The position numbers and the translations under genes are program-made. Positions 40,800 through 42,750 of a stretch of 64,000 nucleotides of DNA are shown here, piece by piece (position 1 is the first letter of the stretch; each line of letters starts with the position of its first letter). The stretch spans positions 151,466,001-151,530,000 of the forward strand of contig NC_073377.1 in the NCBI RefSeq assembly GCF_028641065.1. Direction: 5' to 3'. Origin of the DNA: Leucoraja erinacea. Taxonomy: Eukaryota. The notes beneath the pieces were generated by a model. The model was given only the letters and a program-made list of their open reading frames with translations. It made no database searches and had not been told where the DNA came from.

Positions 40800-42750
40800 A
40801 ATAGAGGCACATTTTGAAAATCATAATCTAATCAAGCAGAGCCAACATGGCTTCATAAAGGGGAAATCATGTCTAATTAATTTATTAGAATATTTTCACG
40901 ATGTCTCAACCAGAGTGGATTGTAAGAACGTAGTTTATGCCTTAAACTAGTTTATTGTTAAACTATTTAACTAAGTGCCTCAAAAAAATGATTGATCCAT
41001 AAGATTTCATGATGCTGGAGCTGTTGTACTGACATGGTTTTAGGATTCGTTAAAGAGGTAGGTAGAGGTGATTTTCTGGACGGTTACTGATGACCAGAGG
41101 TATATCACAGGAATCAACACTGGGATCACAACTGTTTACAGTATATACTAGACTAAGTGGGACCCGTTGGGTCCCAGCATCACACGGGAGGGCTGGTCAC
41201 CAATACTGCTAGCCAGTGGGGGGGGGGGGGGGGGGCGCTCTGTTGCGCTAGTATGGGTGTTGCGGGCCGAAGGTACTGGTTTCCAGAGGGCTAGTATAGA
41301 CATTGTGGGCCATATGGATGCTTGGGCAGGCATCCAACTGTTGCAACGATTTTAAAAGCCAAGGCAAACAATTGGGCTGCAGACACCCGACAACCAAAAT
41401 TCACTTTGTGAACACAAACATGTTTTTAAAAAAAAAAAAGGCGAGGCAAACAATTGGGCTGCAGATACCCGACAACCAAAATTCACTTTGTGAACACAAA
41501 TCTGTTAAAAAAAAAAAAAGGCGAGGCAAACAATTGGGCTGCAGCCACCTGACAACCAAAATTCACTTTGTGAATACAAATTTTTTAAAAAGGGCTGCAG
41601 CCACTTTACAGCCGCATCGAGGGGACTCACCGTGGAGTAGACGTGCCTTCAGTGTTATTCGCAGCTCAGAGAGCCGTGAGCCGTGACCCTCTCACTTCCT
41701 GGTTCTGGCAGAGACTGAGTGAGACACGACACTTCCTGGTTTTATAGTCCCCTCCCCCTGCCGCCAGTGGGGGCAGCAGAGAGAATGGGGAATTTTGTAA
41801 AACATTAATATATCTCTAATTTTTCATCGACGGAAAATATCCTCCGCACTCATACGGCGGAGGGGGGCTCTGAGCGAGGTGGCCAAAAATGACAGCTGTA
41901 GGTGGCAGCGTTCGCTCGGAAATCACAGCACAGTCGGCCAAAAGCGGTCAAGATCAGAGATTTAGTAATATAGATTAACAACTTGGAAGAACAAACAAAT
42001 GTACGTTAGACAAATTTGTGGATAACACAAGGATCAATGGGGAGGCGAATTGCAAAATATTATGTAAATGGAGAATAACTGCAGAAAACAGATTTGGTGG
42101 TCTTTGTGTACAGAGCATGGAAATCTGGGAGAGAAATAAGGATCAACATTCTATTCACCCCTAGTGCCTAGTATACGGAAAGCTAATGACATTTTGGGCC
42201 TTTTTTCATGCGATTTGAAAATAAAAGTAGAGAAGCCTCACTGCAACTGTACAACTAAGCAATAATAAGACTAGATAAAGAGTACTTTGAACAATTTTGG
42301 TCCCCCTAGAAACAGAGATTGTTAGATTGGAGGCAGTTCAGCGAAGGTTCACTAGAATGATCTATGGTATAGATGGTTGCCCTACAAGGAAACGTTAAAC
42401 AAGTTGGGCTTCTACTCGTTGGTATTTAAAAGGTTGAAACATGTAGATTTCGTGGAGGGGGGGGGGGTATGGGGTAGCGAGATAGAGTAAATACTGAGGT
42501 GTAGGAAGGAACTGAGAGGATGTGTCCTTTCATGGGAGAGTCAAGGACCAAAGGGCATGTTCTCAGAACAAGGTAATGACTATATTAACTCAATCATTGG
42601 GTATATTTCAATTTGCATCAGTAGATTTTACGAATAGTCAAGGAATCTAGGGAATTGTAGGTTAGGGTGTGGAGTTGATGTGGAACTTCATAGTGATCAC
42701 AATAAATGGTGACCAGACCTACTTTATTTCTTGTTTCATCGATTATGATT
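40800..42750 (+). mobile_element. old CR1 RT fragment, host of Helitron copy 2
   Basis: QHGFIKGKSCLINLLEYF; GISQESTLGSQLFTVYINNL. Confidence 0.8.
41148..41974 (-). mobile_element. non-autonomous Helitron copy 2 (ETFDH intron 5)
   Basis: minus strand A|TCTATATTACTAAA...GGGACCCAACGGGTCCC-ACTTAGT-CTAG|T; removal restores host CR1 frame QLFTVY|INNLEE with no TSD. Confidence 0.92.

What the first reader, a model, noticed from the sequence alone, without database searches (positions are those of the whole stretch)
41148..41974. Non-autonomous Helitron carries a complete Pol II promoter, first exon and splice donor, antisense to ETFDH
Seen on the minus strand of copy 2: TATAAAA starting at 41746, a consensus initiator TCA+1GTCT with A at 41716 (TATA at exactly -30), two CAGGAAGT ETS-type sites, and ACG|GTGAGT donor after 41631, giving an 86-nt ATG-less exon. 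Copy 1 keeps the same geometry (TATA 37415, A+1 37385, donor after 37307) despite other divergence. No coding sequence follows, only three ~60-bp internal repeats and the 3' hairpin-CTAG. Inference: a mobile promoter/exon-1 cassette, either the native Helitron promoter or a captured host first exon, able to start spliced transcripts wherever it lands. Here it would fire antisense through ETFDH towards C4orf46.
Basis: partly seen in the sequence, partly recalled or inferred. Interest (0 to 1): 0.7.

Follow-up and report, generated by a model that had tools for sequence, protein, structure and literature searches.

The report
Helitron keeps its transposase gene's promoter
Two copies of a very common gene-less rolling-circle jumping element sit backwards in introns of what is likely the ETFDH gene and keep the front end of their enzyme-coding parent, which is likely that parent's own promoter and first exon rather than a captured host one; nothing found shows that these two copies start transcripts.

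Summary
The motifs are real and at the stated coordinates in copy 2; copy 1 keeps the spacing but has a mutated initiator and first ETS site. The element is a canonical non-autonomous Helitron (A^TC ... hairpin-CTAG^T; 6,072 first-look candidates in this genome). The cassette is not a captured host exon. It is the left end of RepHel-coding Helitrons of the same genome: 27 of 40 RepHel splice-acceptor sites have such a cassette upstream on the same strand (3 hits on the opposite strand). TATA-to-initiator spacing (+29/+30) holds in five lineages that are down to 51% identical, and the donor in four. An internal deletion removed the acceptor and RepHel and left an orphan donor. Among 30 family copies the motifs decay at the background rate. 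Poly(A) reads, probably of a related species, show read-through, no start pile-up and no donor junction among the listed loose ends. Antisense firing through ETFDH is unsupported. Side result: four RepHel loci carry a different left module fused at the acceptor, a likely promoter swap. This scan reached the same main reading before on other DNA of this and other genomes.

The parts
41148..41974 (-). Copy 2: non-autonomous canonical Helitron (HLE1), 827 bp, in intron 5 of the ETFDH-like gene, antisense to it
41961..41974 (-). Left terminal sequence, TC start after A
   Evidence: 26 of 28 family copies start A^TC
41740..41746 (-). TATA box, TATAAAA, 30 nt before the initiator A
   Evidence: present in 14 of 15 representatives of five lineages
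41731..41738 (-). ETS-type site 1, just 3' of TATA; CCGGAAGT in lineages B and C and in A-type parents, absent in lineage E
41712..41718 (-). Initiator TCA(+1)GTCT; predicted start 41716
   Evidence: A at +29/+30 kept in lineages A-E; start itself not shown
41631..41716 (-). Predicted non-coding leader exon of the parent's RepHel transcript (86 nt; 79 nt in many copies)
41694..41701 (-). ETS-type site 2; not kept in lineages B-E
41625..41630 (-). Orphan splice donor GTGAGT; its partner acceptor was lost with the internal deletion
41354..41597 (-). Three ~80-nt repeats related to the start of the parent's first intron
   Evidence: 132 of 163 bases match parent L130
41148..41335 (-). Right-end segment shared with RepHel-coding parents
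   Evidence: 178 of 193 bases match the C8 parent's right end
41158..41176 (-). 3' terminator hairpin, 8-bp stem, followed by CTAG at 41151-41148
36870..37644 (-). Copy 1 of the same family in intron 2 of the ETFDH-like gene; TATA 37415, degraded initiator (A 37385), donor after 37307, CTAA end
37964..38193 (+). ETFDH-like exon 3 (host context; name from recalled motifs)
39662..39780 (+). ETFDH-like exon 5 (host context)
42790..42870 (+). ETFDH-like exon 6, approximate (host context)

Best explanation
The element is an internally deleted, non-autonomous Helitron whose TATA box, initiator, short exon and splice donor are the left end of RepHel-coding Helitrons in the same genome, where they likely serve as the transposase gene's promoter and non-coding first exon; the two ETFDH-intron copies are likely inert passengers. 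Shown from sequence: parent layout = left end, TATA, initiator at +30, 60-85-nt exon, GTGAGT donor, intron with tandem repeats and a second GC-rich block with its own donor, a branch-point-like stretch and TTTAG acceptor about 15-18 nt before the RepHel ATG, RepHel, right end. The family keeps ~640 nt of the left part and ~190 nt of the right part. Inferred: Pol II starts at the initiator and splices to the acceptor in the parent; the cassette rides along in the deleted copies because it lies 230-350 nt from the left end that transposition needs; most copies are methylated and decaying.
For:: four RepHel-bearing loci begin with the same left end (80-86% identity over the first 250-360 nt); three of the four share the right end; of 51 RepHel loci (458 kb upstream DNA), 24 have a related left end upstream in sense against 2 antisense (binomial p 1e-5; some small-contig loci are duplicates, so not all independent); 9 of 51 have TATA plus initiator at +30 in sense, 0 antisense; the acceptor pattern has 170 matches (control 0); of 40 sites examined, 27 have a TATA-type cassette 1.4-6.5 kb upstream in sense (25 lineage B, 2 lineage A), 3 have an antisense hit, 18 keep TATA + initiator at +30 + donor, no right end lies between, and 37 have an ATG just after the acceptor; lineages A-E are 51-83% identical, yet TATAAAA is in 14 of 15 representatives, an initiator-like A at +28..+32 in 15 of 15 and a donor in 13 of 15; the repeats and the right end align to parents; these ORFs carry Helitron_like_N and PIF1; neutral decay of the motifs; CpG divergence 7.8% against 2.2%.
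Against: No start site or donor-to-acceptor junction was observed, so promoter function in the parent is inferred from geometry and conservation alone. Most RepHel loci (42 of 51) lack a recognisable TATA cassette within the fetched DNA; several have other left modules, and the lineage with the longest open frames mostly lacks it. A second promoter-like block with its own donor exists in parents and could be the main start. The acceptor pattern came from a lineage-B parent, so the A-type link rests on few loci (C8, L130, L215, L216). Family reads are about 4:1 in the element's sense, which leaves room for activity of some copies. The 30 copies are the closest to copy 2, not a random sample.
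Confidence: 0.82

Rival explanations
1. Portable exon-trap promoter: the native cassette still fires in a fraction of the thousands of deleted copies and, having lost its acceptor, splices to the next host or cryptic acceptor, so that some copies supply first exons to host genes or non-coding RNAs. This is compatible with the best explanation for origin and differs on present function.
For: 20 of 30 copies keep TATA, initiator and donor; CpG observed/expected is 0.78 in the first 375 nt of copy 2; sense-biased reads, about 4:1 over the cassette and up to 8:1 over the repeats; depth falls after the donor, 93 to 38 within 25 nt; HelibatN3 does this in bats (PMC4778049, passages).
Against: No start pile-up; depth over TATA and just upstream of the initiator (213) exceeds depth in the exon (82-171); no loose end at the donor among the 6 listed (27 or more reads each; 42 rows hidden); the fall after the donor is also expected from lineage divergence there. 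Motifs show no excess conservation.
Confidence: 0.35
2. The two copies here fire antisense through ETFDH and regulate it, or feed a first exon to C4orf46.
For: Copy 2 has every motif intact and points towards a minus-strand C4orf46-like exon.
Against: That exon is 22-26 kb away, beyond the ETFDH promoter island; AATAAA/ATTAAA lies at about 40956, 40886 and 40391 after copy 2 and at 36864, 36786, 36716 and 36706 after copy 1; only one pyrimidine-rich AG was found within 3 kb of either donor. Copy 1 has lost its initiator consensus. With thousands of copies in 2.19 Gb, two in one window needs no selection.
Confidence: 0.06
3. The cassette is a host promoter and first exon captured long ago and later adopted by the RepHel lineages.
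For: Bat Helitrons captured promoters of 15 genes (PMC4224331, passages); unchecked earlier notes report captured SAC3D1 and ALG13 first exons in other Helitrons of this genome.
Against: The cassette is continuous with the left end in five lineages and with the RepHel acceptor in parents; the scored matches that were opened mostly begin with a Helitron left end. Only 40 candidates are scored per search, so a single-copy source could be missed.
Confidence: 0.1
4. The motifs are a chance arrangement with no promoter role at any time.
For: Each motif is short; 33% of aligned columns are invariant among four lineages anyway.
Against: Spacing of +29/+30 survives different spacer sequences and initiator variants (TCAGTCT, TCACTTT, TCAGTTC, TCAGTCA); the donor survives with different exon ends; orientation to the RepHel acceptor is 27 sense to 3 antisense.
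Confidence: 0.04

Closest known systems
Non-autonomous canonical Helitrons, HLE1/Helitron1 (definition in PMC11417382, passages; Heli1Xen1 in PMC12001565, passages)
   Same: TC start, 3' hairpin plus CTRR, A^T target, ends shared with RepHel-coding partners; left ends more diverse than right ends.
   Different: Those passages describe no TATA/initiator/leader-exon layout; for Heli1Xen1 only a 'presumed promoter region' with ChIP peaks is named.
HelibatN3 of Myotis bats (PMC4778049 and PMC4224331, passages)
   Same: Non-autonomous Helitron with promoter, first exon and splice donor at high copy number; potential exon trap.
   Different: HelibatN3 captured the host NUBPL promoter with six codons and was shown to make chimeric transcripts; here the cassette comes from the transposase gene, has no ATG, and activity is not shown.
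Feng8/Xuan1 Helitrons of wheat (PMC13286980, passages)
   Same: The left end of an autonomous Helitron (first 966 bp) holds the transposase promoter.
   Different: Plant element with a heat-response element, shown by reporter; no TATA/initiator/orphan-donor layout in the passages seen.
roo LTR promoters in Drosophila (PMC3530677, passages)
   Same: A transposon's own core promoter with initiator, spread to many loci.
   Different: LTR retroelement with mapped start sites; here a rolling-circle element with no mapped starts.
Composite Helitrons by end bypass (HelibatN539, PMC4224331; silkworm fusions, PMC3789558; passages)
   Same: Left end of one element used with the right end of another; fits the four RepHel loci with a fused foreign left module.
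   Different: Here the bypassed element sits about 20 nt before the RepHel acceptor and would replace the transposase promoter; the passages seen do not describe that outcome.

Membership tests
HLE1 (canonical Helitron), non-autonomous | 5' TC | tested here: met
   28 of 28 copies scored start TC (2 of 30 left out because the match began at base 3)
HLE1 (canonical Helitron), non-autonomous | 3' hairpin followed by CTRR | tested here: met
   8-bp stem in copy 2; CTAG in 20 of 20 copies whose right end was found, of 28 scored; copy 1 ends CTAA
HLE1 (canonical Helitron), non-autonomous | Insertion between A and T, no target duplication | tested here: met
   A before TC in 26 of 28, T after CTAG in 20 of 20; no duplication seen by eye in the flanks printed; no empty site examined
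HLE1 (canonical Helitron), non-autonomous | Ends shared with a RepHel-coding partner | tested here: met
   PF14214 and PF05970 in partner ORFs; Rep motifs seen
HLE1 (canonical Helitron), non-autonomous | RepHel falls in the HLE1 clade | not tested
   no tree against reference RepHel proteins was built
HLE2 / Helentron | Short terminal inverted repeats, T^T target, often an endonuclease domain | tested here: not met
   A^T target; no endonuclease family in 4 of 4 ORFs scanned
HelibatN3-type promoter-capture Helitron | Promoter and exon homologous to a host gene | tested here: not met
   homologous instead to the left end of RepHel elements; an ancient host source cannot be excluded with 40 scored hits per search
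HelibatN3-type promoter-capture Helitron | Chimeric transcripts that start in the element and splice from its donor | tested here: inconclusive
   one poly(A) run, 6% read, probably another species: no start pile-up, no donor junction among listed rows
TATA/Inr Pol II core promoter | TATA about 30 nt before an initiator | tested here: met
TATA/Inr Pol II core promoter | Capped starts at +1 or reporter activity | not testable with these tools
   no CAGE or reporter data available

The most novel reading that the evidence does not exclude
Non-autonomous Helitron left ends act as exchangeable promoter/first-exon cassettes. Thousands carry an orphan donor and some start host transcripts; and when one lands in the leader intron of a RepHel element and loses its CTAG stop, it becomes the new promoter and left end of the transposase gene, as the four fused loci L122, L125, L137 and L146 suggest. 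Helitron lineages would then renew their promoters by recruiting their own deleted offspring.
Probability: 0.3. Interest if true: 0.6.

Novelty: new variant of a known kind. Interest (0 to 1): 0.3.

Why it matters
Little is in print on where vertebrate Helitrons start their transposase transcript: the searches listed no description of this layout or of these elements (supplements, Repbase/Dfam entries and subscription journals were not seen). The family gives a sharp, testable prediction: start at +30 from TATA, donor at +92 to +116, acceptor just before the ATG. It also shows that a HelibatN3-like exon trap can arise by plain internal deletion, without gene capture. For the ETFDH locus itself it is most likely ordinary intronic repeat.

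Tried and rejected
Run search: no RNA holder listed; the one raw RNA run, X22, came in as a same-study addition. Contig runs X1, X5 and X8 are only guessed to be RNA and cannot show starts; not used as evidence. A contig that ends one base before the donor (X8 record 20) was set aside because that base is a CpG that often mutates. A step in depth just before TATA (place 1718) is explained by 92 reads that share one foreign upstream sequence, i.e. read-through into a truncated copy, not initiation. The lineage-C cassette about 10 kb upstream of the C29 RepHel was not counted as linked, because retroelement insertions lie between. An ATG in exon 1 of two A-type parents is in frame with RepHel if spliced directly (C8, L130), but it is absent or followed by a stop in lineages B, C, E and in L215, so a coding exon 1 was rejected. 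The Pfam search for C4orf46 found nothing over cut-off. One of 40 upstream stretches (L154) was mis-aimed and dropped before the count of 51. The look-up of earlier findings by sequence and by promoter-swap words returned nothing. No other eukaryote genome was available, so the age of the two insertions and an empty site could not be tested.

Full report
Observation. On the minus strand of 41148-41974 the sequence shows TATAAAA at 41746, an initiator TCAGTCT with A at 41716, CAGGAAGT at 41738 and 41701, and ACG|GTGAGT after 41631. In the whole window 6 TATA-plus-initiator pairs occur, and only this one has a donor within 300 nt. Copy 1 (36870-37644) is 90% identical (678 of 755), keeps TATA and donor, but has ACAGTCT at the start, a mutated first ETS site, a CTAA end and a weaker hairpin. 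Peptide motifs recalled from memory place ETFDH-like exons on the plus strand, with copy 1 in intron 2 and copy 2 in intron 5, and a C4orf46-like last exon on the minus strand near 15.2 kb; the names come from no database call. That the animal is a cartilaginous fish, likely a skate, is my recall and the wording of earlier notes, not a test.

Family. The first 375 nt have 6,072 first-look candidates in the 2.19-Gb genome; the 40 scored are mostly 92-95% identical. Of 28 copies scored, 26 start A^TC, and all 20 whose right end was found finish CTAG^T; head-to-tail copies occur. This meets the HLE1 definition (PMC11417382, passages). Related lineages add 1,993 and 1,765 candidates (the sets may overlap). 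Among the 30 copies closest to copy 2, TATA is intact in 26, an initiator in 22, the donor in 25 and all three in 20; motif columns vary 1.9-3.3%, non-CpG background 2.2%, CpG 7.8%. The copies thus decay neutrally and look methylated (inference).

Origin of the cassette. PF14214 gave 78 matches, in ORFs with PIF1 domains. Four RepHel-bearing loci begin with the same left end (80-86%), and three of them end with the same right end. Over 51 RepHel loci, related left ends lie upstream in sense in 24 and antisense in 2; TATA with an initiator at +30 lies in sense in 9 and antisense in 0 (one mis-aimed stretch dropped; some loci are duplicates). Just before the RepHel ATG stands a branch-point-like stretch and TTTAG acceptor. 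A pattern for it has 170 matches, control 0. I examined 40 of the 170 (the first exact matches on large contigs, leaving out 7 seen before): 27 have a TATA-type cassette upstream in sense (25 lineage B, 2 lineage A), 1 has another module, 3 have an antisense hit, 18 keep TATA, initiator at +30 and donor, none has a right end between, and 37 have an ATG after the acceptor. The pattern was taken from a lineage-B parent, hence the B excess. Fifteen representatives of five lineages, 51-83% identical, keep TATAAAA in 14, an initiator-like A at +28..+32 in 15 and a donor in 13, although spacer, initiator letters and exon ends differ. The second ETS site is not kept. The window element's repeats match the start of parent L130's intron (132 of 163) and its last ~190 nt match parent C8's right end (178 of 193). 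So the element is an internal deletion that kept promoter, exon 1, donor and the start of intron 1, and lost a second promoter-like block with its donor, the acceptor and RepHel.

Mechanism. Shown: the layout and its link to RepHel. Inferred: Pol II starts 30 nt after TATA and splices one or two leader exons to the acceptor; the cassette is amplified because it lies next to the left end that is needed in cis (established for Helitrons; recalled). An autonomous wheat Helitron likewise has its promoter in the first 966 bp (PMC13286980, passages).

Activity. One raw poly(A) run (X22, about 6% read) was laid twice. Only 25 of 1,368 and 3 of 604 reads were 99% alike, so it is probably another species and reports on the family, not on these copies. 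Reads cover the whole element on both strands, about 4:1 in the element's sense if the library is of the usual stranded kind; depth is 213 over TATA and 82-171 in the exon; no place with many starts is listed; none of the 6 listed loose ends is at the donor, with 42 rows hidden. This looks like read-through inside host transcripts; low-level use is not excluded, and the sense bias and the fall after the donor are the results that speak for it. Locally, poly(A) hexamers follow both copies within a few hundred bases and the C4orf46-like exon is more than 22 kb away. No plus-strand acceptor or poly(A) hexamer was found inside either copy, so harm to ETFDH splicing is not expected.

Side result. 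In L122, L125, L137 and L146 the RepHel acceptor is preceded not by the usual intron end but by a Helitron right end that lacks its CTAG; in L122, L125 and L137 it belongs to a TATA-less module of another abundant family (8,772 candidates) whose free copies end in CTAG (7 of the 8 free copies whose right end was found, of 19, and one in CCAG). A tight pattern finds 3 such junctions. The simplest reading is an insertion at A^T about 20 nt before the acceptor, loss of the stop, and spread as a composite with a new left end. End bypass is known (PMC4224331, PMC3789558, passages); promoter replacement is my inference, and the right ends of these four loci were not checked.

Comparison and verdict. 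Member of non-autonomous HLE1 on every terminal feature tested. It resembles bat HelibatN3 (PMC4778049, PMC4224331, passages) in layout but not in origin, and its trap function is not shown. The searches (listings only) showed no paper on this layout; supplements and repeat databases were not seen and may hold these families. Earlier notes of this scan reached the same reading; they are not independent support, and my reading was stated before I saw them. Interest 0.3.

Noticed in passing
L122, L125, L137, L146 (junctions at G000 C20:31207818, C6:76538133, C14:648783; C1 near 131.248 Mb): A Helitron right end without its CTAG is fused about 20 nt before the RepHel acceptor; in three loci it closes a TATA-less module of another non-autonomous family. 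Likely swap of the transposase gene's left end and promoter.
   Followed up: partly
L077:6700-6900, L070:5880-6010, L215, L130, L139, L126: A second promoter-like block in the parents' first intron (AAGATGGCG YY1-like, ATTTCCGG ETS-like, TGACGTCA CRE-like; factor names recalled) with its own GTRAGT donor; lost in the window family.
   Followed up: partly
L084:1350-2680, L086: Composite non-autonomous elements with two left ends and two TATA cassettes in tandem (lineages C and D); the second lacks the donor.
   Followed up: partly
L061, L063 and loci L032-L035: A RepHel lineage with open frames of 1,290-1,739 codons and a long repetitive N-terminus, possibly recently active; its left end differs and no TATA cassette was found upstream in C38 or C600.
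   Followed up: partly
L128, L131, L138, L141, L142, L143, L144, L147, L152, L158: RepHel loci with related termini but quite different first 400 nt: many left-module types in one genome.
   Followed up: no
L062 (C38, about 11409300-11410500): Tandem head-to-tail array of another short Helitron family directly upstream of a RepHel element.
   Followed up: no
window 24350-24750: CpG island (observed/expected 0.96) at the ETFDH-like start codon (24693), probably the shared promoter with the head-to-head C4orf46-like gene.
   Followed up: partly
window 20038-21305: GC-rich minisatellite array with 33-42-nt units inside the C4orf46-like region.
   Followed up: no
run X22 on L025:1718: 92 reads join one foreign upstream sequence to a family copy cut just before TATA: an abundant host transcript that reads through a truncated copy.
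   Followed up: no
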